DNA of 64,000 nt from an uncultured Candidatus Saccharibacteria bacterium (GCA_964371255.1 CAYJKV010000004.1:39613-103612), one strand, 5' to 3'. Shown: positions 4,758 through 21,107, numbered from the stretch's first letter. Numbers and translations are program-made. Notes: generated by a model from the letters alone, not told the origin.

Positions 4758-5720
4758 ATGGCAAAGAAAGCGATAATAACTGGTATTACCGGACAGGATG
4801 GTTCGTACCTATCTGAGCTTTTATTGGAGAAAGGGTATGACGTTTATGGCTTGGTACCCAGGTACGCGACTAATCCGTTTGAAAATATCGAACATATCCT
4901 GGACAAGGTAACGATTATAACTGGTGATTTAAGTGACTCTTCTTCGTTGTTTCGGATGATCAGGGATGTGCAGCCGGATGAAGTTTATAACCTAGGGGCT
5001 CAATCATTTGTGAAGGGCAGCTGGGATTTACCGGAACTGACGGGTGATGTAACAGGGGTTGGCGTAACTCGCATATTAGAAGCCTTGAGATACGAAAAGC
5101 CGGATGCAAGGTTTTATCAGGCCTCAAGTTCTGAGATGTTTGGCAAAGTGGTGGAAACGCCACAGCGGGAAACAACGCCCTTTTATCCACGCAGTCCCTA
5201 TGGGGTAGCAAAGGTTTATGGACATTACATTACTGTAAATTATCGGGAGAGTTATGGGATGTTTGCTTGTTCGGGGATTTTATTTAACCATGAGTCGCCG
5301 CGGCGGGGGCATGAGTTTGTCACGCGCAAAATATCAGAGGGTGTCGCAAAGATAAAATTAGGGCTTGCCAATGAGCTGAGGCTGGGGAATATGGACGCGA
5401 AACGTGATTGGGGATTCGCCGGTGATTATGTGGTAATGATGTGGTTAATGCTGCAGCAGGAAAAACCAGATGACTATGTAATTGGTACTGGCGAGAACCA
5501 TGCGGTGCAGGAGTTTGTGGAATTAGCGTTTGGTCATGCCGGACTGGACTGGAAAAAATATGTGGTGTTGGACGATGCGTTCAAGCGCCCGGCAGAAGTT
5601 GACGAATTACTAGCTGATCCAAAAAAGGCGAAAGATAAGTTAGGGTGGGAGCCGAGAGTCAGTTTTGAGGAATTGGTAAGAATGATGGTGGAGTCGGACT
5701 TAAAGAAACTAAAAGCGTAA
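4758..5720 (+). CDS. gmd: GDP-mannose 4,6-dehydratase
   Basis: 320 aa. [26 protein letters not shown]..., [10 protein letters not shown] and the [37 protein letters not shown] catalytic region all match Gmd. Confidence 0.95.
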
Positions 5721-5766
5721 AACGGCAAGCGGAAAAATAACAATTAAAATTGAAACGCGCGGCAAG

Positions 5767-6783
5767 ATGAAAGGCACGATTGTCATAACGGGAGGTAATG
5801 GATTTGTTGGAAAACATTTGGTGGATGAGCTGCGGCAGGAATGGCCGAAGGCTGTCTTGTTAGTGTGGGATAGAAGGCTGGAGGGTTTGCCAGAAGGGGT
5901 ACAAGGTCAAGCAGTCGACTTAACAATACCGGATAGCTATCGTTCGGCACTGAGAAAACATCAGCCAGAATGGATTGTTCATCTGGCTGCCATTGCGCCG
6001 ATACCGGCAGCCATGAAGGACCCTGAATTAACGAAGCGGGTAAACGTGGACGCCACGCGAGATTTATTGCAGGGGGTGAGGGATGTATCCGAGGGGACTA
6101 AGGTGTTGGCCATTAGTTCTTCTGATTTGTATGGTTCGGCTAATCTCACCATTGGCGAGTCAGCTAAGTATGCTGGACATAGCCTGCGGGAGGAGGCAAC
6201 AGATAAGAACGATGATAACACTCCCCTACCGGAGCTGAATTTACAAGAGGCACAGCCGACTAACCCGTATGCGGCAAGTAAGTTAAGGATGGAAGAAATG
6301 ATCGAGCAAAACTTTAACGACTTGGTGGTGCGAGCTCGGCCGTTTCCTCATATTGGTCCGGGACAAGGCACAGGATTCGTGACAGCTGACTTCGCTTCGC
6401 AAATTGCCCGGGCAGAGAAAGGTGAACAGGAACCGATAATACGCGTAGGGAATTTAGATACTAGACGAGATTTTACGGACGTGCGGGACGTAGTTAGCGC
6501 ATACCGGTTATTAATGGAAAAAGGGCGGTTAGGCGAGGTGTATCATGTGGCATCAGAGAAAGCGGTAAAAATCGAAGAAGTGTTAGAAAGGTTATTAGCA
6601 TTGGCCAAGGTTGATATGAAAGTTGTGCAGGACGAGAGAAAAATGCGGAAGGCGGATGTGGGGGGGCTGGCGGGCAGTGCCCAGAAGCTGCGCGAAGAAA
6701 CCGGGTGGAGGCCGCAAATTGATTTACAGCACTCGTTGACAGACATTCTGGATTGGTGGCGGATGTATTACGGTAACCGATAA
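5767..6783 (+). CDS. NAD-dependent epimerase/dehydratase family reductase, probably GDP-4-keto-6-deoxy-D-mannose reductase (Rmd-like, GDP-D-rhamnose pathway)
   Basis: GGNGFVGKHLV Rossmann motif, YAASK catalytic motif, and RPFPHIGPGQ...GNLDTRRDFTDVRDVVSAYRLL resembling Rmd. It lies immediately downstream of gmd. Confidence 0.7.
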   Translation: MKGTIVITGGNGFVGKHLVDELRQEWPKAVLLVWDRRLEGLPEGVQGQAVDLTIPDSYRSALRKHQPEWIVHLAAIAPIPAAMKDPELTKRVNVDATRDLLQGVRDVSEGTKVLAISSSDLYGSANLTIGESAKYAGHSLREEATDKNDDNTPLPELNLQEAQPTNPYAASKLRMEEMIEQNFNDLVVRARPFPHIGPGQGTGFVTADFASQIARAEKGEQEPIIRVGNLDTRRDFTDVRDVVSAYRLLMEKGRLGEVYHVASEKAVKIEEVLERLLALAKVDMKVVQDERKMRKADVGGLAGSAQKLREETGWRPQIDLQHSLTDILDWWRMYYGNR

Positions 6784-8624
6784 AGAGAATAGCTGCCCTG
6801 CTTCGTGATTAATTCCCAATCTGATTGAATTGATAGGTTGGGATACAAAGAAAGCTCAACGGGTCCGACTACAACGTAATTGGGTTGGATTTGCGGCAGA
6901 GTCAATGATTGACCAGTGTAGAAAGGGCGAATACTAGTTTCTCTTTCAATGTGGTTACCGCCATGAGTCCAGACATGTCCTGGAAAACCCAAGTAGGCAG
7001 AGCGCCCCGATAGGGCAACTGGTGAATTGTGGTATGGAGCAATGAGGATGACGTCGTTTTTATTGGTGCGGTCGCGAATAGATTCGGCCATAGCGATTGA
7101 AGCAGCGTCCCACTCAGTCCAAGCAGGTAGCCCAGGGAGGGTAAGACGGAAGATATCAATAGAACCAGACAAGAGATGAAAAATCAGGGCAGCGGCTATG
7201 ACCGCGCGCCAGTAATATTTTGCCTGTTGCCATAATGCGTGACACGAGGCGGCTACTAAAGGCAGGGTAAAAAGAATCCAGTAAACGAAGATTTTAGTAT
7301 TATCCCACTCCCAGGCAGCGAAGCGCCAAATATTGGCGGCGAGGAAAAGAAGCAGGCCAGCAGCAGCTAGAAGCTTGGTTTCTTTGGGAACCCGCAGAAA
7401 GAAACCGAGCAGGGTGGTGGGGATAAGGAGGCCGGAATTTTTTAGCCAAAAGATAATAATGTTTTGGTTATGTGCCATCCAACCTAATTGGAGGTGCGGT
7501 GAAGCCGCAGCGGAGGCGGGACTAGTAGAGAAATATAGTAGGCTGGGCAAGCCAGTTAAAGCAGTGGTTAAAAAATAGGTTAGCCAGTGTCGACTTGGTT
7601 GACGCAAGACAAGGAAGATAATAACCGGAATCAAGGCGATAACGGTATGGGCGTGGAATAGAGGGAGAAAACCGGACAGTAGGCCAGCAAGGATCATTGT
7701 TTGGTGAGTTAAGGCAGAACGAGGCTGTCTTAATATAAGAAGTATAATGAAAGCTAAAGACATGCCGAACATAAAAGAGCGCTGGGGAAGCAATAAGGAG
7801 ATGATAGGGTTGATAATATAAAAACCAAGAGGGTCGTCTGAGTGGCCGGTGTAATTGATGGGTAAGTTAGCCAACCACTGTAGAATTGACTCATGAGGTA
7901 TGTTGAAGTCACCAACGATCCTGATCCAACCAAAAGTGCTGCCTCCTAACGCGAAAAGAAGGAGGGCAATTAGGGCTGTCCTGGAGTGACTAGTTAAGGC
8001 AAAGGCCAAGTGATAGAAGAGAAAAAGCGTCAGGGGGATAAGAAGAAAAGCCGGCCACACAACAGCCTGGTTGTAGTTAGCGCCAGCGACCAGGAGAATG
8101 GCGGAAAAGAAATTTGAGAAGAAAGGGTAAGTTAGTTTATTGCCAGCCAGAATTGGATTGTCGGGGGGGATGGTTGAGTTATAGGCCAGGTTAGTAATAT
8201 TGGCCATGTGGAAACCGAGATCACCATAGGCGTTAATGATGCTGGTGGACAGTCCCCCAGCGGTGCTGGAATTATAATAAAGCAATTTAGGGGCGATTAA
8301 GGCGGAGATTATTAATAGCACAACCAGGACGATGACTGCTGGTTTGTTATTGTCAAGGCACTTATAGGTCTGCCAATTTTTAATTTTAACTTGCGTGATG
8401 GTCAGATAAACAATTTCTGCGAGCAGGACAGCAACTATCAGATGTCTAGAAAGCAGAAAGAAAGCTGACGATAAATACGTGAGGACAGTGGTAAGAGTGA
8501 GTCCGATAATTGTACCGACGGCTAGAACCAGGGTTCTTTCCCGCCAGTTGGATAGCGTTAAAGTCAGGTTAATGCCTGTTAACGCGGAGACCACAAAGAT
8601 AGCAAGAGGTAAAAGGAGGCTCAT
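6768..8624 (-). CDS. polytopic membrane protein with an extracytoplasmic C-terminal domain; putative GT-C fold glycosyltransferase
   Basis: 618 aa. It has at least 12 predicted TM helices followed by a roughly 150 aa soluble C-terminus, and sits in the glycan locus next to gmd/rmd. Confidence 0.5.
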   Translation of the reverse strand: MSLLLPLAIFVVSALTGINLTLTLSNWRERTLVLAVGTIIGLTLTTVLTYLSSAFFLLSRHLIVAVLLAEIVYLTITQVKIKNWQTYKCLDNNKPAVIVLVVLLIISALIAPKLLYYNSSTAGGLSTSIINAYGDLGFHMANITNLAYNSTIPPDNPILAGNKLTYPFFSNFFSAILLVAGANYNQAVVWPAFLLIPLTLFLFYHLAFALTSHSRTALIALLLFALGGSTFGWIRIVGDFNIPHESILQWLANLPINYTGHSDDPLGFYIINPIISLLLPQRSFMFGMSLAFIILLILRQPRSALTHQTMILAGLLSGFLPLFHAHTVIALIPVIIFLVLRQPSRHWLTYFLTTALTGLPSLLYFSTSPASAAASPHLQLGWMAHNQNIIIFWLKNSGLLIPTTLLGFFLRVPKETKLLAAAGLLLFLAANIWRFAAWEWDNTKIFVYWILFTLPLVAASCHALWQQAKYYWRAVIAAALIFHLLSGSIDIFRLTLPGLPAWTEWDAASIAMAESIRDRTNKNDVILIAPYHNSPVALSGRSAYLGFPGHVWTHGGNHIERETSIRPFYTGQSLTLPQIQPNYVVVGPVELSLYPNLSIQSDWELITKQGSYSLYRLP

Positions 8625-8736
8625 CTAAATAATGAAATCGGAAACAAAAGACATGTCAAGTAGGTGTGTTTGTGATTAGGGATTTTATCAGTGTACACTG
8701 CTGAGATGACAAATCGGTATATAAGTCGGCAAAAGA

Positions 8737-10080
8737 ATGATAAAGGCTATTGACCGCAAAAGTTTGTTAGTGGTAGGGCTATTGATAGTAGCTATGTGGC
8801 TACGTATGTATCGAGTTGAGGTGCTAAATAGTGTGTCTAGCGATGAGAGGTTGTGGTTAATGGCAGGCGTGTCTCTCTTAAAGGAAGGAGTGCCGACAGC
8901 GTGGACAATCGAATGGCCTCAGCATAGATGGGACAAATTCTGGGAAGTAGACCATGGTGTGGTGACACCTTGGCTCGATCATCCCCCGTTATTTGCTTTG
9001 TTTGCTGGGGGATGGTCTATTTTGATGGGAGTAGACGATATTGATAAGACTAACCAAGCCGTACTACGTCTGCCGATGGTAGTGATATCAATGTTAACTA
9101 TCTATATTACATGGCTGGTGGCGAAAGATATTTTTGATGAGCAGGCGGCGCTGTTTGTGTTGGCTGTGTATACCTTTTTTCCGACCGATTTAATAGCCTC
9201 GCGCTTTATATTAGCAGAGCACTTTGTTCCGCTGTTATTAATGTTGGGTGGGTGGGGGTGGTTACGGTGGCTGAATGAGGACGATAACGGGAAAAGAAAA
9301 CGCTGGTTGGCGGTAATGCTATTGGTGTGTTTTGTGGGGCCGCTGGTTAAACTGATCGGTCTGATTGTGCCAATGACGCTGGGATTATTAGCGCTAATGC
9401 ATCGTCAGTATAAGATCACAAGCGGGTTAATAGGAGCGTGTGTTTTATCGTTGGGGACGTATCTCTTATATGCGTGGTCTTATAGTTGGGATGTTTTTGT
9501 CGGGGCGCAGACAGCTCATATGGCCAGACCACAAAACTTTAATCATTTCTGGTCGTTTTTTACTAAATTGAGTGCTGGTAATGTTTATGTTTTTGACCCG
9601 ACAATGATAATAGGATGGGCAGGCTTGTTTATGATTTTGGCAACAACGACAGATAAGCGCGTACGCAATCTCTTTTTTGCAGCGTTGTTGTCCATTTCCT
9701 TTTTTTTCCTGTACGTGGCCTCAGTGGAAAATTATGACTGGTATAAATATCCCATATATCCTTTGATAGCCATTGGAGCAGGATGGCTTTTTTATCGCAT
9801 ATATAAAGGCGACTATTGGTACCTATTTTTCTTCCTGCCTCTGTTAGTAGAAATTATGCAAAACACTGCATTGATCATAGATCAAACACAGCGTAGGACA
9901 TTAATGGCACTGCTGTACATGTTGTCTATCTTTTCGTTTTTGGTGCACGAAACTTTGTTCAAGAGAGTTTTTGTTGGTCTGATGCTATTATTGTTTTTAT
10001 TAGAAACTGTTTGGTATTTACGGATGTTGGGATTTGATTGCTCATTCAAGGATTGTTTTGCCCAAATGTTGAGAATATGA
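8737..10080 (+). CDS. PMT/ArnT-like (GT39/GT83-type) GT-C membrane glycosyltransferase
   Basis: 447 aa multipass protein. The first extracytoplasmic loop carries an acidic DE motif (SSDERLWLMAG), as in PMT/ArnT enzymes. It is translationally coupled to the downstream GT2 polyprenol-phosphate sugar synthase. Confidence 0.6.
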   Translation: MIKAIDRKSLLVVGLLIVAMWLRMYRVEVLNSVSSDERLWLMAGVSLLKEGVPTAWTIEWPQHRWDKFWEVDHGVVTPWLDHPPLFALFAGGWSILMGVDDIDKTNQAVLRLPMVVISMLTIYITWLVAKDIFDEQAALFVLAVYTFFPTDLIASRFILAEHFVPLLLMLGGWGWLRWLNEDDNGKRKRWLAVMLLVCFVGPLVKLIGLIVPMTLGLLALMHRQYKITSGLIGACVLSLGTYLLYAWSYSWDVFVGAQTAHMARPQNFNHFWSFFTKLSAGNVYVFDPTMIIGWAGLFMILATTTDKRVRNLFFAALLSISFFFLYVASVENYDWYKYPIYPLIAIGAGWLFYRIYKGDYWYLFFFLPLLVEIMQNTALIIDQTQRRTLMALLYMLSIFSFLVHETLFKRVFVGLMLLLFLLETVWYLRMLGFDCSFKDCFAQMLRI

Positions 10081-10832
10081 AAATAATCAATGGTTTGTCT
10101 GTGGTCTTGCCTGTATATAATGAGGCGACTGTCATTACAGAGACGGTGAGTAAAGTGTATGAGCACTTGCGTGTTATAGCCGATACATTCGAAATAATAT
10201 TGGTTAATGACGGATCGGACGATGGTACAGCCATGAAGTTGAAAGAACTGCAGCAGAAACTAACAAACTTGAGAGTGCTGGAGCATGAGCAGAACCGGGG
10301 ATATGGTGAAGCACTAAGGACTGGTTTTGATGCGGCGCAGCAGGAATGGATTTTTCAGATGGACTCGGATGGACAGTTTGATATTACGGAAATAGATCGA
10401 TTTATCGAAGAGATAGATAATTTTGATGTGATAGTAGGCTATCGGAGCAAGCGCGCTGATGTTTGGCCGCGGGCTGTGTTGACTTGGGGATATATGACTT
10501 TAGTAAGGAAGCTGTTTGGGTTGAAGGTGAGGGACGTGGGGTGCGCTTTCAAGCTTTTTAAACGAGATAATTGGGAACGAGTTCAACCGATTGTGGCTGC
10601 TGATCACAAGATCTTCTTGGTGGAATGGATAGGGAGATTGCAGGATTTGAAAGTGAGAATAAAGGAATTGCCGGTGAGGCATTTTAAGAGAGTAGGCGGT
10701 CGGCCAACCGGGGCGAGGCTTGACGTGGTGTGGGCAACAATAAAGGAATTGACAAGTTTAAAGCTAGGGAATATGCGTCTCTTGAAAAGGGGCAGAAGTA
10801 GAGATAGCAATATGGATACAGGTGAGGCTTGA
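10077..10832 (+). CDS. GT2 polyprenol-phosphate mannose/glucose synthase (Dpm1/Ppm1-like)
   Basis: LSVVLPVYNEATVI...ILVNDGSDDGT...EHEQNRGYGEALRTGF...QMDSDGQ is the classic GT2 DxD/Dpm1 signature. The ATG at 10077 overlaps the upstream gene's stop. Confidence 0.8.
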   Translation: MKIINGLSVVLPVYNEATVITETVSKVYEHLRVIADTFEIILVNDGSDDGTAMKLKELQQKLTNLRVLEHEQNRGYGEALRTGFDAAQQEWIFQMDSDGQFDITEIDRFIEEIDNFDVIVGYRSKRADVWPRAVLTWGYMTLVRKLFGLKVRDVGCAFKLFKRDNWERVQPIVAADHKIFLVEWIGRLQDLKVRIKELPVRHFKRVGGRPTGARLDVVWATIKELTSLKLGNMRLLKRGRSRDSNMDTGEA

Positions 10833-10882
10833 TTGGTGACGGCAAAGACGGATAAATTTAGTACAATAGATAAGAGCAGAAT

Positions 10883-12241
10883 ATGGTTGGATTAAAAAAT
10901 GTTTCGTTGCTGGATGTGGTCATCATGTCTTTGGCGTTAGGTTGTTTTTATTGGGGGACCTTTTATTATGCTTGGAACAGGACGGTGGCCATGCTTATTG
11001 TCGGGGTAGGTTTGCTGCTAATGTATGAGTTTTTAAGAAGATGGTCAGCCAAGGAGCAGTCGTTGATAAGTTATACTTGGGTGTCGCTAGTGGTTATTGC
11101 GACACTTGGATTGATAGTGAGGTGGCTACTGATAGATATAGTTAGTTATGACATGATCACATTTTTTATCCCCTGGTACGACTATATTGTGGCAAAGGGT
11201 GGCTGGTCGGCACTTGGTTCTAAGGTAGGAGGATATAGCCCCTTTTATTCTTATTTTTTAGCTTTAGCTACTTATTTGCCGGTAAGTAAAGTAGTGGCCA
11301 TCAAAACCTTGCCGATACTATTTGATTTTGTTTTGGCGATATTTATTTATCGGATCGTGAAGCTGAAGTATGGGTCTGCGCCATTGATACCGATAATGGC
11401 TTTTGCGGCAGTAGTTTTTTTGCCGACCTTAGTGTTCAATAGTGGTGATTATGGGCAATTTGATTCGGTTTATATAGCTTTAATCTTTGGATCATTGTAT
11501 TACGCGTTATTAATTGTTGACAAAAAACACGGTTTGCAAAAGGTGTCTTGGGATAAACTTTTAGCGATAAGTTTTTTGGGACTAGCGGTTTCCGTAAAGT
11601 TGCACGCAGTGTTATTTTTAATACCTTTAATGGTTCTTTACGTTAGCCGGTATATCGAAAGGAGATTTTTTGTGCTGGTACCGCTAATTTATTTATTAAT
11701 TATTGCTCCCAGCATGGCTTTGGGCCTGCCGCTAGCTGACGCCATTAATTATCGGACGGTAGAGGTGAATTATTTTAGAGAATTAGCTTCTGGCGCTCCG
11801 ACGATTTATCAGCTACTGCCTTATTATCCGACAAATCCTTTTCAGGTGATAGGAATTTTTTCCGCTGCGATATTGGTTGTTATGATGGCACTATTAATGT
11901 CTAAGCATGAGTTCATAACCAAAGATAGTCTGATTAGAGTAACCATCGTAGCGCTTTTAGTGGTGCCTTTTATATTGCCAGCTATGAGAGAGAGGTATTT
12001 CTTACCAGCAGAAATTGCAGCAATTGTTTATGCTTTTTATTTTCCAAAGAGGTGGTGGGTGCCAGTTGTCTTGAGTACAGTGATGCTGCTGATAAGTAAC
12101 CGTCTAATCTCTTTGCCTGATGAAGTGTTTTTCAAGTGGTATCATTTGTCGTTGGTGGTTGGTTTTTTGGTGGTTGTTGTGTTGAAAGATTTTTTTATAA
12201 ACGAGGTTATCGAAGAAAAACAATTGATATTAAGACGGTGA
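10883..12241 (+). CDS. polytopic membrane protein; putative GT-C mannosyltransferase (DUF2029/GT87-like)
   Basis: 452 aa with about 11 TM helices. The conserved loop DMITFFIPWYDYIVAKGGW...GYSPFYSY resembles GT87/DUF2029 membrane glycosyltransferases. Confidence 0.45.
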   Translation: MVGLKNVSLLDVVIMSLALGCFYWGTFYYAWNRTVAMLIVGVGLLLMYEFLRRWSAKEQSLISYTWVSLVVIATLGLIVRWLLIDIVSYDMITFFIPWYDYIVAKGGWSALGSKVGGYSPFYSYFLALATYLPVSKVVAIKTLPILFDFVLAIFIYRIVKLKYGSAPLIPIMAFAAVVFLPTLVFNSGDYGQFDSVYIALIFGSLYYALLIVDKKHGLQKVSWDKLLAISFLGLAVSVKLHAVLFLIPLMVLYVSRYIERRFFVLVPLIYLLIIAPSMALGLPLADAINYRTVEVNYFRELASGAPTIYQLLPYYPTNPFQVIGIFSAAILVVMMALLMSKHEFITKDSLIRVTIVALLVVPFILPAMRERYFLPAEIAAIVYAFYFPKRWWVPVVLSTVMLLISNRLISLPDEVFFKWYHLSLVVGFLVVVVLKDFFINEVIEEKQLILRR

Positions 12242-14476: not shown

Positions 14477-15715
14477 TTGATGAGGAATGGCTTACGACTG
14501 ATCTATGTACTTTGTGGTAATGCTGCCTATAATCGTGGCGATCGGGGTAATCTACTCACCCAGCTGCGTTTGCTGCATGAGGCTTGGCCGGGCGCACAAA
14601 TCGTGATTGATTCTTATCGGCCAGAGGTTGACAGCAAGTGGTACGATGCCATCGTTATTAAGCGGGGATTTTTTTTAACTTGGCAACAATGGCAATACCT
14701 AAAACGGGCGGATGTGGTTGTTTGGGGTGGAGGAGCTTTAATTGCGGACAATTCTTGCCGGACGATTATCCCCTATTGGTTAGCCGTTATTACATTAATT
14801 AAAAAAGTCTTACGTAAACCGGTCATGGCATGGGCTCACGGGTTGGTGGTGGAGACAAAGTTAGGTGCCGTGTTAGCCAAATTAACTTTGAATCAGGTTG
14901 ATATGATAACGGTCAGAGATGGGGATAGTATGAGGACCTTGCAGCGGATTGGAGCAACTCGGCCACCACATTATTTAACAGCTGATCCAGCTATGTTAAT
15001 TAAGCCTTCGTCTTATGAGATAGGGGAAAGATTATTAATAAAAGCAGGGGTGACGTTAGGGCGAGAAAGAAAATTAGTAGCCATCAGCCTGACGTTTTGG
15101 CCTTTTTATCATAAGAGGAATGACATTATACCTTATATGTTTGCGCGGAAGCTTGGCTTAAGAGGGTCGCGGTATGCGCGTGGCTTGGCGAAGTTTAAAA
15201 AAGCAGTAACCGAGTTGATCGATAGGCTGATCGAGCGGCAATCGGTTGACGTGATTTTGATGCCAAGGTACCCCTCTGGCTTATGGGACGATTTAAAACA
15301 TTTGGATGATATCCGTCAAAGGAGTCGGTATAAAAAGAACGTGTTTATTTATCAGGGTGACGAGGTGCCGCCGGTCGATTATCTGGCTATGTGGCGGGTA
15401 TTTAATTTGGTTATTAGTGTGGCTTTGCATGACGCCTTGTTCGCTATTGCTCTTAACCGGCCATGTGTGCAGTTATATTATGAACCAAAGGGCAGGGACT
15501 TAGCCGATGAATTAGAGGCGGATGATTATATGTGCGATTGGTCAGTGTTGTTTGCAGCGGGAGGGCTAGAGCGGATAGTGGATATGGCGGATTTTGCCAT
15601 GAGCCATTCCCTTGATCAGAAAACTAACCAGGGGCTAGAGGCAATGAAGGTGAGAGCTGCACTAAACGTAGATTATTTGCGGGCAATGGTGCGAGAAAAA
15701 GGATTCCGGGCATAA
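14477..15715 (+). CDS. polysaccharide pyruvyl transferase family protein (CsaB/WcaK-like)
   Basis: The N-terminal LCGNAAYNRGDRGNLL matches the GNxGDxxI motif of PF04230 proteins. Size is 412 aa. Confidence 0.55.
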   Translation: MMRNGLRLIYVLCGNAAYNRGDRGNLLTQLRLLHEAWPGAQIVIDSYRPEVDSKWYDAIVIKRGFFLTWQQWQYLKRADVVVWGGGALIADNSCRTIIPYWLAVITLIKKVLRKPVMAWAHGLVVETKLGAVLAKLTLNQVDMITVRDGDSMRTLQRIGATRPPHYLTADPAMLIKPSSYEIGERLLIKAGVTLGRERKLVAISLTFWPFYHKRNDIIPYMFARKLGLRGSRYARGLAKFKKAVTELIDRLIERQSVDVILMPRYPSGLWDDLKHLDDIRQRSRYKKNVFIYQGDEVPPVDYLAMWRVFNLVISVALHDALFAIALNRPCVQLYYEPKGRDLADELEADDYMCDWSVLFAAGGLERIVDMADFAMSHSLDQKTNQGLEAMKVRAALNVDYLRAMVREKGFRA

Positions 15716-15729
15716 CCGGCAAGGCGTGA

Positions 15730-17034
15730 TTGTTGCTCTGGACTATGTGGTCGGTCATTAAAGAAACGTCATTGGTCAGGCATAGCGGGGTTTTGATGGC
15801 GACTGTTTTTTTAACGGGTATTTTAGGGTACATGTTTCATGCAGTGGTGGCGAGAAGGATGTCGGTCGACCAATATGGCGAACTGCAAAGTTTGTTAGCG
15901 TTATTCAATATAGTAGTAGTTTTTACTGGTTGGCTATCGTATTACGGAGTGAGATACGCGGCTGTGTTTGCGGCCGCTGGTGACAAAATAAGCAGTGGTC
16001 AGTTTTGGCGGTGGCTGGATCGGAAAGTATTGATATGGACTATTTGTTTAGGGATCGTTTTTGTGGGAGCGAGTCCGGTGGTAGGCAGCTATTTGCGGGT
16101 GAACAACTGGTGGGGATTGTTTGTGGTTGGTTTGGCAGGAGCTTTATGGTTTATGACCTTATCGAGTGTGGGAGTGCTGACGGGCTGGGAGAGTTTTTTG
16201 TTAATTGGTGGGGTGAACACCGTGGGATCTTTAGTGAAACTGTTGGCAGGGATAGGGTTGGTGGCCATAAACACACAAGCTGCAGTGGTAAGTAGCTCTT
16301 TTTTAATTTCGAGTGTAGTCGTGTGGTTACTCTTTCGCTATATATGCAAAAGAAAGTTTATTGATGGAGAAGAGGTTGCTTCGTCGGTCAGGTGGCGAGA
16401 GACGTATTTTCGAGGAAGGCATATTGGCCACGGGAAAATATTTGTAGTGCTCTTTGCGTGGTTGATGGCGGTATTATTCAGTATTGATTTGTTGGTGGTT
16501 AGACATTTGCTACCTGCTTATTTAACTGGTCAGTATGGTGCATTGAGCTTGTTGGGAAAAACTGCGATGTGGGCGAACTTAACAGTGGTAACAGCGGTTT
16601 TACCGCAAGTGCTAGCGAGGGGATACGACGGCAAAAAAATCGACCATAACACACTGAGCTTGGTTTATGGATTGCTACTTGGTATAGGGGGAGTGACAGT
16701 AACTATATATTATTGGTTTGGATCATTGGTACTTCGGATTTTGTTGGGAGGGCAATATGTTGCTTTAGCTGGTGATTTATGGCTGTTCGCGGTGATGGCG
16801 GCCGGCTTTTCTTTGTTGCATTTGGAGGCCAACTTTGCATTTGCGCGTGATGATTGGCGAATTTTACTGGTTTTGTTAGTCGTTATAGTGTTAATAATTT
16901 GGGGAATTAACATTTATCATGAGTCCATTAAACAGGCGGCGATCAGTATAATTGTTGCGTTAGTTGTTGGTTATGTCGGTGCCTTCGTCTTGAACGTGCA
17001 TAACCGGAAGCTTAGAATTGATGGGATGTTATGA
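15730..17034 (+). CDS. oligosaccharide/polysaccharide flippase (Wzx/MOP superfamily)
   Basis: 434 aa with about 12 TM helices. The N-terminal region (...ARRMSVDQYGELQSLLALFNIV) is typical of the polysaccharide biosynthesis protein family. Confidence 0.6.
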   Translation: MLLWTMWSVIKETSLVRHSGVLMATVFLTGILGYMFHAVVARRMSVDQYGELQSLLALFNIVVVFTGWLSYYGVRYAAVFAAAGDKISSGQFWRWLDRKVLIWTICLGIVFVGASPVVGSYLRVNNWWGLFVVGLAGALWFMTLSSVGVLTGWESFLLIGGVNTVGSLVKLLAGIGLVAINTQAAVVSSSFLISSVVVWLLFRYICKRKFIDGEEVASSVRWRETYFRGRHIGHGKIFVVLFAWLMAVLFSIDLLVVRHLLPAYLTGQYGALSLLGKTAMWANLTVVTAVLPQVLARGYDGKKIDHNTLSLVYGLLLGIGGVTVTIYYWFGSLVLRILLGGQYVALAGDLWLFAVMAAGFSLLHLEANFAFARDDWRILLVLLVVIVLIIWGINIYHESIKQAAISIIVALVVGYVGAFVLNVHNRKLRIDGML

Positions 17035-17804
17035 AAATAAATTTGCATAACAGAAATAATATGGCGGTGCCAGTTGGCTTATCGCCGCACGATAGTGCTT
17101 CTGATAGAGTGCATTACTGGCATATGGCCAGACAAAAAATATTAAAGAGGTGGATCAAACAATATGTTAGTAAAATAGTTCAAAAGGAAAAATTGTCCTT
17201 ACTGGATGTGGGTTGCGGCAGGGGGCTCTATCTGAAATATTTTAGCAATGATTATGACTGTGCTGGCCTAGAACCAGAGATAAGTTTGTTGAAAAAAGCG
17301 AGGATGATAAACCCGAGAGTATGGCAGGCTGGCTTGCCGTTGAAGGATGGGATTGTAAACGAAAAATTCGATATAGTCTTATTGTTAGACGTTTTGGAAC
17401 ACATTAACGATGATGTCGCTGCTCTAAAATCACTAAAACAAGTTTTAAATAATCATGGGAGAATGATTATTAACGTACCGGCGCATGGTTGGTTATGGTC
17501 AACGATAGATGAGGTCAGCGGACACAAGCGACGGTATACAATGAGCTCCATAACGAAAGTAGTGGAAGAGGCAGGTTTTTGCCTGAAACAGATTCGTTAT
17601 TGGGGATCCCTAGGTTTGCCATTGGTATTTTTACAGCGATGGCTGTGGCGAGCGCGGGGTAAGAAGGGTTATCGCATGTATACCCCCGACTTAAGAATCA
17701 ACAAGTTCTTAGGCGAATTATTGTATGGCGAATTTTGTCTGACTGAACGGATTAAATTACCTTTCGGGGTAAGCGTGATAATGGTGATAGTGCCTAAAGA
17801 TTAA
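17031..17804 (+). CDS. class I SAM-dependent methyltransferase
   Basis: LLDVGCGRGLYLKYF (motif I) and DIVLLLDVLEHI (motif II/post I). The ATGA overlap with the flippase gene indicates coupling. Confidence 0.75.
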   Translation: MKINLHNRNNMAVPVGLSPHDSASDRVHYWHMARQKILKRWIKQYVSKIVQKEKLSLLDVGCGRGLYLKYFSNDYDCAGLEPEISLLKKARMINPRVWQAGLPLKDGIVNEKFDIVLLLDVLEHINDDVAALKSLKQVLNNHGRMIINVPAHGWLWSTIDEVSGHKRRYTMSSITKVVEEAGFCLKQIRYWGSLGLPLVFLQRWLWRARGKKGYRMYTPDLRINKFLGELLYGEFCLTERIKLPFGVSVIMVIVPKD

Positions 17805-17898
17805 TCGAGGTTGCTGGTGGGAGTGATGCCAGGATAAATTTTACTTGGATTGCAGGCTAAGATAATCGGCCGGAACGTTTGTGAAGAGCTGGTACGTA

Positions 17899-19776
17899 TT
17901 ATCTGGGGTGGTTGATCCATTGGTCGTGCCAGAGGTGAAGCATAAGAAGAGTCCATATTTTCTTGCGATGGTCAGCTTTGCCTTGTCTGTGCTCGGTTAG
18001 TAAACGATCAACTACCGGGGGCTTTACTATGTCGGCTGCCCGTAGATTGTCAGGCGCTAGTACTTCCCTTGTCCAGTTATACAGTGGTTCGCGTAACCAG
18101 TGACCGAGAGGCAGGGAAAAGCCTTGCTTTCGTCGATCGATGATTTGGCTGGGAATACGACCACGCATCAGTTTTTTTAGAAGATACTTGTTTCTCTTTA
18201 GGTGGATTGGTAAACACATAAGAAAGTTCGTTAAGTCGATGTCGAGGAAGGGGGCTCTGGCTTCTAGACCGGCGTACATGGTGCTCCGATCTAGTTTGGT
18301 GAGAAGGTAATTATTTAGATAGTGATGGATATTGACTAATGAAACAGCGTCTATTGGCGCTAGCTCTTGAGCCAAGTCAGTATATTGAGTGACATCTGCC
18401 AGTACTTGGCCGACATGAGCCCGAAAAGGGTCGGTCAGTATGTCGTTTAGTTCTGTTGGGGAGAATGAGCTAATCCATAACTGATTTCTCATTAGCGGGG
18501 AATAACCTATGCCTTGTAAGAGTGTTTTTATTCTGGAATCAAAAGTTGAATATTCGTATTTGGTGGGGATGAGGTGGACAATCTTTGCCAGGGAGGTCCA
18601 AAGAGAACGAGGTAAAGAGGGGAGGTGTTCGGTGATCTCAGCTGCACGATACATATTGTATCCAGCCAACAATTCATCACTACCTTCACCGGAGAGGGCA
18701 ACGGTAATCAGGCTGCTGGCGAACTTGCTTAACTGATAGGTTGGTAGTAAAACGGGATCGGCCAGTGGTATGTCTAAGAAATGTTTTAGTTCCTCTAAAG
18801 TTTTGCTGACGTCTTGTGCTCTGAAGTACATCGCGTGGTGACGGGTGCCGAGGGCGGTAGCAGCAGTTTGTGAGAAGGATGATTCGTCATAAGATTTTTC
18901 TGTGAAATAAACAGAGAATGACAGTAAATCATTAGTGTTAGTCTGTTTCATGTACCAAGCAATGGTTGTCGAATCTAGACCACCGCTCAGGAATATGCCC
19001 ACTGGCACATCGGCGAGCTGGCGTCTTTTTACTGCCTGAGACAATAGTCCGTCGAGTTGATCAATGGCTGCAGCGTCGGAAGCAAATGAGGTTTTAGGTA
19101 AAAATATTGGTTGCCACCATTTTTTTATGTCCGTGTTTTGTCTGGTGATGCGGGCGTATGATCCCAGCGGTAGTTGCTTGATGGTCTCGTAACCGGTAGC
19201 TGGTGCGGGAACATATGTATACAGGAGATATTTTGAAATTGCTATGGGGTCAACAGTGTGAGGGAGGTCGGGATGGGCCAGCAGTGCTTTTGTTTCGGAG
19301 GCAAAGATGAAAGAATGTCCGAGGTCTGCATAATAAAGCGGTTTTTTTCCAAAAGGATCTCGGGCGAGTAATAATTCCTGTTTTGCCTTATCCCAGAGAG
19401 CTAGGGCGAACATACCGCGTAATTTAGACAAGGCAGAGATGCCCATCTTAGCTAGCAGATGAAGCAGTACCTCGGTATCTGAAGATGATCGTAGTTTGAT
19501 GTCTTGGAGGTATTGCTTGCTGAGTGTCTGGTAGTTGTATATTTCGCCATTGAAAATAATCGTGTAACGTCCGTCGGGAGTTGTCATGGGCTGATGGCCG
19601 CTTGGCGACAGATCAATGATGGCTAGTCGCTGATGCGCCAAGCCGCAGCCGTGGTTGATGTATACACCCTTATCGTCTGGCCCGCGGTAGCTCAATAAAC
19701 CGGCCATTTTATTGAGAGTAGCTTGGTCAATGCTTGCTCCTGCACGTTTGTCCAATATGCCTATAATGCCGCACAT
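17899..19776 (-). CDS. asnB: asparagine synthetase (glutamine-hydrolysing) family amidotransferase
   Basis: Starts MCGIIGIL, with Cys2 as the nucleophile. The PP-loop SGGLDSTTIA and a typical AsnB C-terminal domain are present. The longer ORF starting at 19869 is very unlikely to be the true start. Confidence 0.85.
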   Translation of the reverse strand: MCGIIGILDKRAGASIDQATLNKMAGLLSYRGPDDKGVYINHGCGLAHQRLAIIDLSPSGHQPMTTPDGRYTIIFNGEIYNYQTLSKQYLQDIKLRSSSDTEVLLHLLAKMGISALSKLRGMFALALWDKAKQELLLARDPFGKKPLYYADLGHSFIFASETKALLAHPDLPHTVDPIAISKYLLYTYVPAPATGYETIKQLPLGSYARITRQNTDIKKWWQPIFLPKTSFASDAAAIDQLDGLLSQAVKRRQLADVPVGIFLSGGLDSTTIAWYMKQTNTNDLLSFSVYFTEKSYDESSFSQTAATALGTRHHAMYFRAQDVSKTLEELKHFLDIPLADPVLLPTYQLSKFASSLITVALSGEGSDELLAGYNMYRAAEITEHLPSLPRSLWTSLAKIVHLIPTKYEYSTFDSRIKTLLQGIGYSPLMRNQLWISSFSPTELNDILTDPFRAHVGQVLADVTQYTDLAQELAPIDAVSLVNIHHYLNNYLLTKLDRSTMYAGLEARAPFLDIDLTNFLMCLPIHLKRNKYLLKKLMRGRIPSQIIDRRKQGFSLPLGHWLREPLYNWTREVLAPDNLRAADIVKPPVVDRLLTEHRQGKADHRKKIWTLLMLHLWHDQWINHPR

Positions 19777-19880
19777 ATAGATTAATTTAAACTTTGTTGG
19801 ATGATTGTACCAAAACTGAAATAACTTGCTTGCCAGGAGATCAAGACTGATGATAAATAAAGTGACCAATCTTTAATATC

Positions 19881-21107
19881 ATGATCATAGAACAACCATA
19901 TTTAAGGACGAACCAAGCTGGCGTTAGTGTACGTGCGAAGGTTCAAGTCGAAACAAGCCGCCACTTGTCGCGTGAATTGTGGTTTGAAGTTAATGACAGT
20001 AACGGGCAGTACCTAATGGCATCTTTCGATCCTTTTGTGGTGGGAGTGTTAATGTTAGCTATGTCGTTGGGTGAAGATATCAAAATCAACGGTAATTTAT
20101 CGCCAAAGCTGATTTATGGCTTGAAACAATATCAGCAATATTTTCATTATTGGTTTAAAGACAGATTGCAGGTGGTTGATATTGTGGCTAGTGCGGGCGA
20201 GGAGATGGATGGTGACCATAGGCAAGAAGCAGTCGCCAGTTTTTTTTCTGGTGGAGTTGATTCCTTTTATACACTATGGAGTCATCTACCAGAGCAAGAG
20301 AGAGTTGTCGCCAATCGGCTTACTCATTGTGTTTTCGTGCATGGTTTTGATATTCCGATTAACGATGTAAGAACGTTTGATACGGCGTTTGTGCACTATG
20401 AAAAAATGATGGAGCGGATGGGGATTCAACTGATTGGCGTCAGGACGAATCTGAAGGAACTTTTGATCCATTGTAATGTTGGTTGGGGCATGACGCATGG
20501 TACCGCGCTAGGAGCAGTGGGAATGTTGTGGCAAGGTCTAGTTGGTCGAATGTATATTCCATCAACACAGAAATATTCAGTAACCGAGCCGTGGGGGAGT
20601 AATCCAGTTGTTGATCCGATGTTGTCACTTAATCAGCTAGATTTTGTGCATCACGGGGCACATATGGCAAGGTTGGATAAAATTACCGAGATTTGTCATT
20701 GGCCGGTTGTTTATGATGCTATGCGTGTTTGTTGGTTGCGGCCTAATGGGATTAATAATTGTGGTCGGTGTGAAAAGTGTCTGCGGACAATGATGGCTTT
20801 GGAAATTGAAGGAACCTTGCGTTGTTTTGGTACCTTTCCGAGTAAGCGGGTGGTTAATTGGTCTAAGTGGAAGGTGGTAGATTATTACGAGAAAGGTTAT
20901 TTGGAGGAGCTCAAGGAGAGAGCCGAGCAAAGAAAGAGATTTGATTTGTTGGCGATTATGGAAAAGATACAGCAGAGGTCTAAGTGGTTGCGTGGAGCAT
21001 ATTGGTTAAGGAAAGAACTTTGGTACAAGGGCGGATACATGTTCTTACGGGTAAGAGATTATTGGAGACAGCTGGTTGTGAAAACATTGAAAGGAAAAGA
21101 CTACTAA
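19881..21107 (+). CDS. PP-loop ATP pyrophosphatase family protein; probable N-acetyl sugar amidotransferase (WbuX/WbpG/PseA-like, QueC-like fold)
   Basis: SGGVDS PP-loop motif and a C-terminal Cys cluster NCGRCEKC. It is 408 aa, transcribed divergently from asnB, inside the glycan locus. Confidence 0.55.
   Translation: MIIEQPYLRTNQAGVSVRAKVQVETSRHLSRELWFEVNDSNGQYLMASFDPFVVGVLMLAMSLGEDIKINGNLSPKLIYGLKQYQQYFHYWFKDRLQVVDIVASAGEEMDGDHRQEAVASFFSGGVDSFYTLWSHLPEQERVVANRLTHCVFVHGFDIPINDVRTFDTAFVHYEKMMERMGIQLIGVRTNLKELLIHCNVGWGMTHGTALGAVGMLWQGLVGRMYIPSTQKYSVTEPWGSNPVVDPMLSLNQLDFVHHGAHMARLDKITEICHWPVVYDAMRVCWLRPNGINNCGRCEKCLRTMMALEIEGTLRCFGTFPSKRVVNWSKWKVVDYYEKGYLEELKERAEQRKRFDLLAIMEKIQQRSKWLRGAYWLRKELWYKGGYMFLRVRDYWRQLVVKTLKGKDY

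What the first reader, a model, noticed from the sequence alone, without database searches (positions are those of the whole stretch)
4758..21107. Surface glycan locus of about 16 kb: a GDP-D-rhamnose-type 6-deoxyhexose pathway, a polyprenol-phosphate sugar synthase and multiple GT-C membrane glycosyltransferases
Gene content in order: gmd, an Rmd-like reductase, a GT-C membrane protein, a PMT/ArnT-like GT-C enzyme translationally coupled to a Dpm1-like GT2, a GT87/DUF2029-like GT-C, a YfhO-like protein, a pyruvyl transferase, a Wzx flippase, a SAM methyltransferase, AsnB and a PP-loop amidotransferase. The coupled Dpm1-like and PMT-like pair is the hallmark of lipid-linked-sugar-dependent protein O-glycosylation (as in actinobacteria and eukaryotes). 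This predicts a periplasmic or extracellular protein- or lipid-glycosylation system decorated with 6-deoxyhexose, pyruvate, methyl and amidino groups, plausibly acting on the Ser/Thr/Pro-rich surface proteins encoded in this window.
Basis: partly seen in the sequence, partly recalled or inferred. Interest (0 to 1): 0.5.

Follow-up and report, generated by a model that had tools for sequence, protein, structure and literature searches.

The report
GT-C-rich surface glycosylation island, CPR bacterium
An uncultured ultra-small (CPR, Andersenbacteria-like) bacterium carries a variable gene island that probably makes GDP-D-rhamnose and uses lipid-linked sugars and four membrane glycosyltransferases to decorate something on the cell surface; the machinery is of a known kind, but one enzyme family in it and one accessory gene pair had not been described.

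Summary
The gene content at 4758-21107 is confirmed almost item by item. It comprises gmd, an Rmd-like reductase, four GT-C membrane glycosyltransferases, a soluble ArnC/GtrB/DPMS-like GT2 joined to the PMT_2 gene by an ATGA overlap, a pyruvyl transferase, a Wzx-like MOP protein, a methyltransferase, AsnB and a PP-loop-motif protein. Two of the GT-C assignments rest on confident AF2 models whose best structural matches are almost all GT-C enzymes. The host is CPR (Candidatus Andersenbacteria-like).

The region is not one conserved 16-kb system. It is a variable island between truB and uvrB. In relatives the constant core is gmd-rmd plus the 618-aa GT-C, a family with no Pfam, NCBIfam or PDB sequence match. 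The trio was next to each other in 8 of 10 contexts and stands alone in the smallest one. The GT2, the other GT-Cs and the pyruvyl/flippase/MT/AsnB/PP-loop module come and go.

The best reading is a lipid-phosphate-sugar and GT-C extracytoplasmic glycosylation system of the three-component or mycobacterial PPM type, linked to a 6-deoxyhexose. The acceptor is unknown.

"Hallmark of protein O-mannosylation" and "amidino groups" are not supported. The only hint of a protein target is a pilin gene with an S/T/P-rich tail inside one relative's island.

Side result: the PP-loop family is a cross-phylum partner of pyruvyl transferases, and in two loci the two are fused.

The parts
4758..5720 (+). gmd, GDP-mannose 4,6-dehydratase (core)
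   Evidence: TIGR01472 equivalog, 440.5 bits against cutoff 415. PF16363, 2e-131. Conserved in all 8 syntenic relatives.
5767..6783 (+). Rmd-like SDR, GDP-4-keto-6-deoxy-D-mannose reductase candidate (core)
   Evidence: Best PDB sequence hits are 2PK3 (6e-51) and 6X3B (1e-48), both Rmd. A stretch of about 28 aa (roughly residues 125-152) lies between the two segments that align to Rmd. C4 stereochemistry cannot be inferred.
6768..8624 (-). 618-aa GT-C glycosyltransferase of an unannotated family (core; always next to gmd-rmd)
8737..10080 (+). 447-aa PMT_2-type GT-C
   Evidence: PF13231, 33.6 bits against GA 26.1. A DE motif (D36-E37) after TM1 is invariant in 5 orthologs. No PMT or PMT_4TMC hit and no PDB sequence hit.
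10077..10832 (+). 251-aa soluble GT2, polyprenyl-phosphate sugar synthase-like, translationally coupled to the PMT_2 gene
   Evidence: ATGA start/stop overlap. PF00535. Best solved relatives are ArnC (1.4e-17), GtrB sll0501 (5e-13) and PfDPMS (8e-10). NCBIfam ArnC, PgfS and PpgS all fall below their cutoffs. No TM segment.
10883..12241 (+). 452-aa GT87/GT50-like GT-C
   Evidence: Profile A1 hits GPI mannosyltransferase 1 at 1.5e-5. 559 relatives in genomes, and two of six sampled pass the Pfam GT87 gathering score. Invariant D90, FD148 and GQxDS.
12142..14280 (-). 712-aa YfhO-like GT-C; the last ~40 aa are a non-conserved tail that overlaps the 3' end of the convergent gene
   Evidence: 755 representatives in the family search. 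18 of 62 hit Pfam YfhO and 4 hit PTPS_related. AF2 pLDDT 94.8. Foldseek gives AftD 3e-8, then STT3, AftA and ArnT. The tail is not conserved.
14477..15715 (+). polysaccharide pyruvyl transferase (accessory module)
   Evidence: PF04230, 69.7 bits. CsaB TIGR03609 scores 111 bits, below its cutoff of 213. Present only in the window and L001.
15730..17034 (+). 434-aa MOP/PST (Wzx-like) flippase candidate
   Evidence: No direct Pfam hit. tblastn E 4e-4 and a collinear 25% alignment over residues 10-425 with the Halobellus 'oligosaccharide flippase family protein', which itself passes Polysacc_synt_3 (66 bits) and Polysacc_synt (52.8 bits). About 11 hydrophobic segments.
17031..17804 (+). class I SAM methyltransferase, ATGA-coupled to the flippase gene
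   Evidence: Methyltransf_23/11/12. ATGA overlap at 17031-17034.
17899..19776 (-). AsnB-type glutamine-dependent amidotransferase (625 aa from MCGIIG)
   Evidence: Asn_synthase 5e-88 and GATase_6/7. The gene call gives 625 aa.
19881..21107 (+). 408-aa protein with a PP-loop motif and a QueC-like Cys motif, from an unannotated family that partners with pyruvyl transferases
   Evidence: Invariant [FY][ST][GC]G[VLI]D[ST] and C284-x9-C294-x2-C297-x2-C300. Only sub-threshold MnmA, GMP-synthase and QueC hits. A pyruvyl transferase is adjacent or near in 4 of 7 plasmid contexts and in 24 of 79 metagenome loci, with 2 fusions, against 0 of 80 control loci.

Best explanation
The region is a variable surface-glycosylation island in a CPR (Andersenbacteria-like) genome, wedged between truB and uvrB. 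It has two layers.

Layer 1, core and GT-C enzymes. Gmd and an Rmd-like reductase make a GDP-6-deoxyhexose, most likely GDP-D-rhamnose, in the cytoplasm. A soluble DPMS/GtrB/ArnC-like GT2 loads a sugar from a nucleotide donor onto polyprenyl phosphate. The donor could be GDP-D-rhamnose or GDP-mannose, and which one is inferred, not shown. The lipid-linked sugar is flipped across the membrane. Four GT-C enzymes (the novel 618-aa family, the PMT_2 type, the GT87-like and the YfhO-like) then transfer it to acceptors on the outer face. The acceptor or acceptors are unknown. Candidates are surface proteins such as pilins, or a lipid- or wall-anchored glycopolymer.

Layer 2, an accessory module found only in this genome and its closest relative. 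It consists of the pyruvyl transferase, a MOP flippase, a methyltransferase, AsnB and a QueC-like PP-loop protein. These probably modify a lipid-linked glycan on the cytoplasmic face (pyruvate ketal, methyl, and possibly amidation of a carboxylate) before export.

Shown here: the gene identities, the folds, the gene overlaps and fusions, and the pattern of conservation. Inferred: the donor sugar, the acceptor and the order of steps.
For: Enzyme identities. GT-C folds from confident models.

GT2 to GT-C linkage: ATGA overlap in the window, the same arrangement in L001, a 4-nt overlap in the reverse order in L089, and a single 617-aa GT2::PMT_2 protein in L087.

Core trio: gmd-rmd lies next to the 618-aa family member in the window, L001, L085, L086, L088, L089, L099 and L100, with family identity falling to 38%. 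In L100 the trio is all that sits between truB and uvrB.

The island is variable. The GT2, GT87-like, YfhO-like and extra PMT_2 genes, an LtaS-like sulfatase, PGA_cap and a pilin each appear in only some relatives.

No initiating phosphoglycosyl transferase, Wzy or further Leloir glycosyltransferase appears among the locus ORFs, so this is not a classical Wzx/Wzy cluster.

The CPR assignment rests on the 90%-identity RpoC cluster, which includes Candidatus Andersenbacteria / Parcubacteria records. The published concept of three-component systems includes one with a MATE (MOP-superfamily) flippase (PMC11127046).
Against: - No biochemical or glycan-structure data exist for this lineage.
- The minimal islands (L085, L100) have no GT2. 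If the 618-aa GT-C uses a lipid-linked 6-deoxyhexose, the synthase must lie elsewhere, and only +/-8-10 kb was seen.
- All relatives with the trio belong to one lineage with a shared gene order (S20-truB...uvrB-ruvA), so part of the adjacency may be inherited rather than functional.
- No GtrA-type small flippase is present.
- The GT2 falls far below every NCBIfam equivalog cutoff, so its sugar cannot be assigned.
- The genes sit on alternating strands in at least six transcription units, not one operon.
Confidence: 0.65

Rival explanations
1. Dedicated protein O-glycosylation system. The GT2 makes polyprenyl-P-mannose or polyprenyl-P-rhamnose, and the PMT_2 and other GT-C enzymes transfer it to Ser/Thr of secreted proteins or pilins, as Ppm1/Pmt do in actinobacteria.
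For: In relative L089 a type IV pilin gene (N_methyl motif) sits between rmd and the 618-aa GT-C homolog. Its C-terminal tail reads PIPSPSSTATPTSSTWPTPTDSPLTTACPSPSPTSTPASSP. A DE motif after TM1 of the PMT_2 protein is conserved. At 30% identity the 618-aa family lies next to a true PMT/PMT_4TMC protein in L101. The C-terminal domain of the 618-aa model resembles the AglB globular domain. The window encodes a secreted Big_5 protein with a T/P/S-rich linker.
Against: The pilin is present in only 1 of 10 contexts. No pilin motif occurs in the window or in the other relatives' loci. The 447-aa protein fails the PMT and PMT_4TMC models and matches no solved PMT. GT2 + GT-C pairs serve many non-protein acceptors. 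YfhO-type enzymes characterised so far act on teichoic acids (my own knowledge, not tested here).
Confidence: 0.25
2. Assembly and decoration of a wall or membrane glycopolymer (an LTA-, WTA- or SCWP-like polymer, or a lipoglycan as in mycobacterial LM/LAM). The GT-C enzymes elongate or decorate a polymer outside the membrane, and CsaB-like pyruvylation provides anchoring sites.
For: The YfhO-like protein is a GT-C. Relative L086 carries two YfhO-like paralogs flanking a 713-aa sulfatase-domain (LtaS-like) protein. A pyruvyl transferase whose best NCBIfam hit is CsaB lies next to a MOP flippase, an arrangement that recalls csaAB. Several different GT-C enzymes in one island recall PPM- and DPA-dependent lipoglycan assembly (PMC3485146, listed).
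Against: The CsaB score is far below its cutoff (111 against 213). No SLH-domain protein, LtaS, TagO/WecA or polymer-export genes are found in the window's locus. The LtaS-like gene occurs in one relative only.
Confidence: 0.35
3. Classical Wzx/Wzy-type O-antigen, capsule or S-layer-glycan cluster that builds an undecaprenyl-PP-linked D-rhamnose repeat unit, with the 618-aa protein acting as an STT3/PglB-like oligosaccharyltransferase or ligase.
For: gmd and rmd plus a Wzx-like protein, a pyruvyl transferase and a methyltransferase are typical contents of such clusters. STT3 is the top Foldseek hit of the 618-aa model, and its C-terminal domain resembles the AglB domain.
Confidence: 0.1

Closest known systems
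Three-component extracytoplasmic glycosylation systems (GtrA/GtrB/GtrC, CsbB/YfhO, ArnC/ArnT; GT136 pentofuranose systems, PMC11127046)
   Same: A GT2-type polyprenyl-phosphate sugar synthase, one or more GT-C transferases, and a MOP-superfamily membrane protein that could flip the lipid-linked donor. The synthase and GT-C genes are tightly coupled.
   Different: There are four different GT-C enzymes rather than one. The synthase has no membrane anchor. No GtrA-type flippase is present. A dedicated nucleotide-6-deoxyhexose pathway is attached. In relatives the constant partner of gmd-rmd is an unannotated GT-C family, not the GT2.
Mycobacterial and corynebacterial PPM-dependent mannosylation (Ppm1 with PimE/GT87, MptA-D and Pmt/GT39)
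   Same: One lipid-phosphate sugar synthase can feed several GT-C enzymes, including a GT87-like and a PMT-like one. The catalytic GT2 is soluble and physically or genetically tied to a membrane partner, as with Ppm1/Ppm2. The envelope is of the Gram-positive type.
   Different: No phosphatidylinositol or LAM genes are present. The PMT-like protein fails the GT39 Pfam models. The GT87-like protein reaches the GT87 model only through intermediate relatives. The attached sugar pathway leads to a 6-deoxyhexose rather than mannose.
GDP-D-rhamnose pathway (Gmd/Rmd) of the Pseudomonas aeruginosa common polysaccharide antigen and the Aneurinibacillus thermoaerophilus S-layer glycan
   Same: A Gmd equivalog, and a reductase whose closest solved relatives are exactly these two Rmd enzymes.
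   Different: In the known systems GDP-D-rhamnose is used by cytoplasmic Leloir rhamnosyltransferases (WbpX/Y/Z) with ABC-transporter export. Here no such transferases are nearby, and the conserved neighbour is a GT-C.
CsaA/CsaB (flippase + pyruvyl transferase) of Bacillus anthracis SCWP modification
   Same: An adjacent pyruvyl transferase and MOP/PST-type membrane protein. The best NCBIfam hit of the transferase is CsaB.
   Different: The score is well below the CsaB cutoff. No SLH proteins were seen. The module also carries a methyltransferase, AsnB and a QueC-like PP-loop protein.
QueC (7-cyano-7-deazaguanine synthase) and other PP-loop ATP pyrophosphatases
   Same: The SGGxDS-type motif and a Cx9Cx2Cx2C cysteine cluster. 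My own reading, not tested here, is that this cluster resembles the zinc site of QueC. QueC's chemistry is ATP-dependent conversion of a carboxylate to an amide or nitrile.
   Different: Hits to QueC, MnmA and GMP synthase are only sub-threshold. The protein has an extra N-terminal domain of about 100 aa. Its genomic partner is a polysaccharide pyruvyl transferase, not queuosine genes.

Membership tests
GDP-mannose 4,6-dehydratase (Gmd) | Score above the curated equivalog cutoff of TIGR01472 | tested here: met
   440.5 bits against cutoff 415.
Rmd (GDP-4-keto-6-deoxy-D-mannose reductase) | Closest characterised relatives are Rmd enzymes rather than Fcl, GalE or RmlD | tested here: met
   2PK3 at 6e-51 and 6X3B at 1e-48; the next hit is 8e-32; Fcl scores only 6.5e-6 in NCBIfam.
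Rmd (GDP-4-keto-6-deoxy-D-mannose reductase) | Product is GDP-D-rhamnose (C4 stereochemistry), not GDP-6-deoxy-D-talose | not testable with these tools
   Needs an enzyme assay with NMR or HPLC of the GDP-sugar.
Polyprenyl-phosphate glycosyltransferase (DPMS/GtrB/ArnC class of GT2) | GT-A domain whose nearest solved relatives are polyprenyl-phosphate sugar synthases | tested here: met
   PF00535 at 7e-29. The top six PDB sequences are ArnC (three) and GtrB sll0501 (three), and PfDPMS also matches.
Polyprenyl-phosphate glycosyltransferase (DPMS/GtrB/ArnC class of GT2) | C-terminal transmembrane helices that anchor the enzyme (GtrB, ArnC, PfDPMS) | tested here: not met
   251 aa with no hydrophobic segment. 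It resembles the anchor-less type (human DPM1, mycobacterial Ppm1 catalytic domain; my own knowledge).
Polyprenyl-phosphate glycosyltransferase (DPMS/GtrB/ArnC class of GT2) | Score above any NCBIfam equivalog cutoff (ArnC, PgfS, PpgS, haloarchaeal DPH transferase) | tested here: not met
   74 against 529, 69 against 500, 51 against 370, and 39 against 375. The sugar specificity is therefore unassigned.
GT39 protein O-mannosyltransferase (PMT/Pmt) | Match to Pfam PMT (PF02366) and PMT_4TMC (PF16192) | tested here: not met
   Only PMT_2 (PF13231) matches, at 33.6 bits. Neither the protein nor its ortholog profile matches any solved PMT or ArnT sequence.
GT39 protein O-mannosyltransferase (PMT/Pmt) | Acidic DE motif in the first extracytoplasmic loop | tested here: met
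   D36-E37 is invariant in five orthologs. This motif is shared with ArnT-type enzymes, so it is not specific.
GT39 protein O-mannosyltransferase (PMT/Pmt) | Transfers mannose from polyprenyl-P-Man to Ser/Thr of proteins | not testable with these tools
   Needs glycoproteomics or an in vitro assay.
GT-C fold glycosyltransferases (618-aa and 712-aa proteins) | Predicted structure superposes on solved GT-C enzymes and not on transporters | tested here: met
GT-C fold glycosyltransferases (618-aa and 712-aa proteins) | Conserved acidic residue in the first large extracytoplasmic loop | tested here: inconclusive
   Invariant D135 (618-aa family) and D38 (712-aa family) lie just after a TM helix. 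Residue-level superposition on catalytic Asp residues was not available.
GT87 (PimE-like) | Match to Pfam GT87 (PF09594) above the gathering score | tested here: inconclusive
   The window protein has no hit. Relatives at 33-39% identity score 33.4 and 36.7 bits against GA 25. The profile hits GT50 PIG-M at 1.5e-5.
YfhO family | Match to Pfam YfhO (PF09586) | tested here: inconclusive
   The window protein has no hit. 18 of 62 family members hit, best E 7e-9. The architecture fits: a polytopic N-terminal part, a beta-rich outer domain and a final TM helix.
Wzx / MOP-PST flippase | Match to Polysacc_synt, Polysacc_synt_3 or MurJ models | tested here: inconclusive
   No direct hit. A full-length 25% alignment to a flippase that passes both models; database E 4e-4. 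hhalign against E. coli RfbX and WzxC was uninformative.
CsaB (SCWP pyruvyl transferase) | Score above the TIGR03609 cutoff | tested here: not met
   111 against 213 bits. General PS_pyruv_trans membership is met.
Wzx/Wzy-dependent O-antigen or capsule cluster | Initiating phosphoglycosyl transferase, Wzy polymerase and Leloir GTs in the locus | tested here: not met
   None among the ORFs of 4758-21107.
N-acetyl sugar amidotransferase (WbuX/PseA type; would give acetamidino groups) | Match to the NCBIfam or Pfam family model | tested here: not met
   The 408-aa protein matches no NCBIfam family at E<=0.01 and no relevant Pfam family at E<=10.

The most novel reading that the evidence does not exclude
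The conserved trio gmd-rmd-618-aa GT-C would mean that these CPR bacteria make a lipid-linked D-rhamnose (polyprenyl-phosphate-D-rhamnose, a donor I know of no report of; two searches found none in the searchable library). On this reading the 618-aa proteins are a new GT-C family of extracytoplasmic D-rhamnosyltransferases that O-glycosylate surface proteins such as the S/T/P-tailed type IV pilin encoded inside one relative's island. Separately, the QueC-like PP-loop family would be a new enzyme that chemically modifies pyruvate ketals on glycans, for example by amidating the carboxylate. It works with pyruvyl transferases across bacteria and archaea.
Probability: 0.2. Interest if true: 0.7.

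Novelty: new variant of a known kind. Interest (0 to 1): 0.5.

Why it matters
CPR/Patescibacteria live attached to other microbes, and their surface and pili mediate that contact. Their glycobiology is essentially unexplored: a 2024 Saccharibacteria pilus study could offer only software predictions of pilin glycosylation (PMC11623550).

This locus gives three concrete, testable handles. The first is a strain-variable island of outer-face glycosyltransferases anchored to a D-rhamnose-type pathway. The second is a GT-C family that current domain libraries miss. The third is a cross-phylum pairing of pyruvyl transferase and PP-loop protein, including fusions, which points to an undescribed modification of pyruvylated glycans.

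None of this overturns known principles. It extends the lipid-phosphate-sugar and GT-C scheme to a new lineage, and possibly to a new sugar.

Tried and rejected
- Direct Pfam and NCBIfam scans at E up to 10 gave nothing for the 618-, 452-, 712-, 434- and 408-aa proteins.
- PDB sequence or profile searches gave nothing useful for the 618-aa family, the 712-aa family, the PMT_2 protein or its ortholog profile, or the 434-aa protein. The 408-aa protein and its family gave only chance or sub-threshold hits.
- hhalign of the two-sequence 434-aa profile against E. coli RfbX and WzxC, with WbbH and WcaD as controls, was uninformative: all probabilities were below 1%.
- The metagenome scan with the 434-aa alignment found no relative.
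- The afdb50 fold library was unavailable.
- The word-index homolog search found only 5 and 3 relatives for the 452- and 712-aa proteins. The exhaustive searches showed that these families are in fact large.
- The genome loci fetched with the GT87-like protein share no synteny with this island.
- Rfam and tRNA scans of the window found nothing.
- Promoter and terminator scans were not above the shuffled expectation.

Rejected readings: a classical O-antigen cluster (no PGT, Wzy or Leloir GTs); acetamidino-sugar synthesis (no WbuX-type match); and the idea that the large downstream ORFs are surface proteins (they are RpoB, RpoC and FtsK).

Full report

The soluble enzymes are identified directly.
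- gmd passes the curated TIGR01472 equivalog cutoff, 440.5 against 415 bits.
- The next SDR is closest to the two solved Rmd enzymes, 2PK3 at 6e-51 and 6X3B at 1e-48, far ahead of any other SDR.
- The 14477-15715 product is a PS_pyruv_trans protein, 17031-17804 is a class I methyltransferase, and 17899-19776(-) is an AsnB starting at MCGIIG.
- The GT2 starts at the ATG at 10077. This forms an ATGA overlap with the stop of the preceding PMT_2 gene. The flippase-like gene and the methyltransferase gene overlap in the same way.
- The GT2's best solved relatives are all polyprenyl-phosphate sugar synthases: ArnC, GtrB sll0501 and Pyrococcus DPMS. It has only 251 aa, has no membrane segment, and falls below every NCBIfam equivalog cutoff.

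**Membrane proteins.** Only the 447-aa protein has a direct Pfam hit, PMT_2 at 33.6 bits against 26.1. The other four needed indirect evidence.
- The 712-aa protein belongs to a family of 755 representatives. Of 62 sampled members, 18 hit Pfam YfhO. Its model (pLDDT 94.8) matches AftD, STT3, AftA and ArnT.
- The 452-aa protein has more than 550 relatives in genomes of cyanobacteria, Chloroflexota, actinobacteria and clostridia. Two of six sampled relatives pass the GT87 model, and its profile hits GPI mannosyltransferase 1 at 1.5e-5.
- The 434-aa protein aligns end to end with an annotated haloarchaeal oligosaccharide flippase, and that protein passes Polysacc_synt_3 and Polysacc_synt.

Those for the 452-, 712- and 434-aa proteins hold only through intermediate relatives.

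**Organism and setting.** The window's RpoC clusters at 90% identity with proteins named Candidatus Andersenbacteria / Parcubacteria group. The island lies between truB and uvrB, followed by ruvA, femAB, a Mur ligase, tsaB, rpoB and rpoC.

**What is conserved.** Ten contexts of the 618-aa family were examined.
- The closest relative, L001 (about 75% identity), keeps the whole order. It adds a 534-aa PMT_2-like protein, a PGA_cap gene and another PMT_2.
- More distant relatives keep the same chromosomal position but different contents.
  - L085 has gmd, rmd, the 618-aa homolog, a PMT_2, a methyltransferase and a GT87.
  - L089 has gmd, rmd, a pilin, the homolog, a PMT_2, a GT2 and a 468-aa GT-C that Pfam labels PMT_2 but that tblastn matches to the GT87-like protein at 38% identity.
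  - L086 has gmd carrying an intein, rmd, a 535-aa GT-C-like protein, the homolog, a PMT_2, two YfhO-like paralogs and an LtaS-like sulfatase.
  - L099 has gmd, rmd and the homolog.
  - L100 has nothing but gmd, rmd, two tiny ORFs and the homolog between truB and uvrB.
- The pyruvyl transferase, flippase-like protein, AsnB and PP-loop protein have homologs only in L001. The methyltransferase has a close homolog only there, though other class I methyltransferases occur in L085 and L087.

The finding is therefore a variable island with a constant core (gmd, rmd and the novel GT-C) and interchangeable accessories. It is not a fixed 16-kb system. The locus is also not one operon: genes alternate between strands in at least six units.

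**Mechanism.** All characterised GT-C enzymes take lipid-phosphate- or lipid-diphosphate-linked donors on the outer face of the membrane; this is established knowledge of the family. A DPMS/GtrB/ArnC-like GT2 tied to a GT-C gene fits the three-component scheme. The tie appears as an ATGA overlap here and in L001, a 4-nt overlap in L089, and a fusion into one 617-aa protein in L087. That scheme has also been described with a MOP-superfamily (MATE) flippase (PMC11127046).

The persistent adjacency of gmd-rmd to a GT-C, and the absence of Leloir rhamnosyltransferases nearby, suggests that the 6-deoxyhexose reaches the surface through a lipid-phosphate intermediate. This step is inference. It is weakened because the minimal islands lack a GT2 within the 8-10 kb seen.

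The second module most plausibly modifies a lipid-linked glycan on the cytoplasmic side before export: pyruvyl transferase, flippase-like protein, methyltransferase, AsnB and PP-loop protein. Alternatively, the 434-aa protein could be the flippase for the lipid-phosphate sugar.

**Acceptor.** Nothing in the window identifies it.
- For a protein target: a pilin with a long S/T/P tail lies inside the L089 island, and a true PMT lies next to a 30%-identity family member in L101.
- For a polymer target: the YfhO-like enzyme, the LtaS-like neighbour in L086, and the CsaB-like pyruvyl transferase.

The 447-aa protein fails the GT39 models and matches no solved PMT or ArnT. "Hallmark of protein O-mannosylation" therefore overstates the case.

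The 408-aa protein matches no acetamidino-sugar amidotransferase model, so "amidino groups" has no support.

**The PP-loop protein.** It has an invariant [FY][ST][GC]G[VLI]D[ST] motif and a C-x9-C-x2-C-x2-C cluster that I read as QueC-like. Hits to QueC, MnmA and GMP synthase are only sub-threshold.

Homologs at 25-31% identity occur in cyanobacteria, alphaproteobacteria, Bacillota and haloarchaea, and all are annotated as hypothetical.
- In 4 of 7 plasmid contexts a pyruvyl transferase is adjacent or two genes away.
- Of 79 metagenome loci, 24 carry one in the flanks, 22 of these on the same strand. Among loci with at least 1.5 kb on both sides the figure is 11 of 23.
- Two loci encode PP-loop::pyruvyl-transferase fusions.
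- None of 80 control loci (1.41 Mb) carries one.

This is a robust and apparently undescribed partnership; a literature search found nothing. A role in ATP-dependent modification of the pyruvate carboxylate is a guess.

**Comparison and novelty.** The closest known systems are the three-component GT2/flippase/GT-C systems and the mycobacterial PPM-dependent GT-C network. The sugar pathway matches the Gmd/Rmd route of Pseudomonas CPA and the Aneurinibacillus S-layer glycan.

The differences are these:
- four distinct GT-C enzymes;
- an anchor-less synthase;
- a GT-C family unknown to the domain libraries as the constant partner of gmd-rmd;
- a CPR host;
- the pyruvyl-transferase/PP-loop pair.

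Literature searches found no description of such loci in CPR. CPR papers mention only glycosyltransferase counts, dTDP-L-rhamnose genes and predicted pilin glycosylation (PMC5220378, PMC11623550).

I rate this a new variant of a known kind and of moderate interest.

Noticed in passing
window 19881-21107; loci L090, L091, L094, L096, L102-L180 (fusions in L115:5884-8469 and L172:2-2266): The unannotated family with a PP-loop motif and a QueC-like Cys motif sits next to polysaccharide pyruvyl transferases across cyanobacteria, proteobacteria and Bacillota. It does so in 24 of 79 metagenome loci against 0 of 80 control loci, and in two loci the two proteins are fused. No annotation or literature on this pairing was found.
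   Followed up: yes
window 4042-4093 (inside truB) and 21742-21793 (inside uvrB): A 52-nt direct repeat (81% identical) contains two copies of the self-complementary 13-mer AACACCSGGTGTT. It is inserted in frame in both housekeeping genes that flank the island, reading AGKTPGVNNKTPGVEEA in TruB and AGKTLGVGKKTPSAEEA in UvrB. It is absent from the relatives' loci, and UvrB is 662-670 aa in relatives against 700 here. It resembles the in-frame palindromic elements of Rickettsia.
   Followed up: partly
window 1-64000: The + strand has an extreme GC skew: 0.24 overall and 0.18-0.41 in every gene, whichever strand the gene is on. This points to a replication-strand mutational asymmetry far above usual bacterial values.
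   Followed up: partly
L089:11846-12445 (- strand): In a relative's island a type IV pilin gene (MRKGFTLIELLVVIAIIG...) with a C-terminal tail of about 45 aa rich in Ser, Thr and Pro lies between rmd and the 618-aa GT-C homolog. It is a candidate glycosylation substrate.
   Followed up: partly
L086:14586-16577: The gmd ortholog of a relative is 663 aa. It is interrupted by a LAGLIDADG-type insertion (an intein), with the two Gmd halves matching on either side.
   Followed up: no
L087:6693-8546 and 12744-13703: One relative encodes a single 617-aa GT2::PMT_2 fusion protein. In the same locus an IS110-family transposase has replaced gmd-rmd and truncated the 534-aa GT-C-like gene to a 210-aa remnant.
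   Followed up: partly
window 55041-61353: Five consecutive + strand genes (629, 316, 432, 350 and 367 aa). Four end in the same PEP-utilising-enzyme 'mobile domain' motif (GGxTSHAAIxxRExxxPCVIGT...DGDLVEVDAxKGIV), and the 316-aa gene looks like the N-terminal ATP-grasp part. Together they form a tandem family of split PpsA-like proteins, also picked up as DNA repeat D1.
   Followed up: no
window 12142-12264: The YfhO-like gene runs about 40 codons past the conserved end of its family. It overlaps the 3' end of the convergent GT87-like gene by 100 nt. The tail is absent from both close homologs.
   Followed up: partly
window 24005-24099 and 25191-25284; 23954-23990 and 39084-39120: Related AT-rich intergenic repeats (about 95 nt, 78-84% identical) precede the femAB and Mur-ligase genes. 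A further AATTTTCAATTTTCA-type repeat recurs upstream of other genes. These may be shared promoter or regulatory elements.
   Followed up: no
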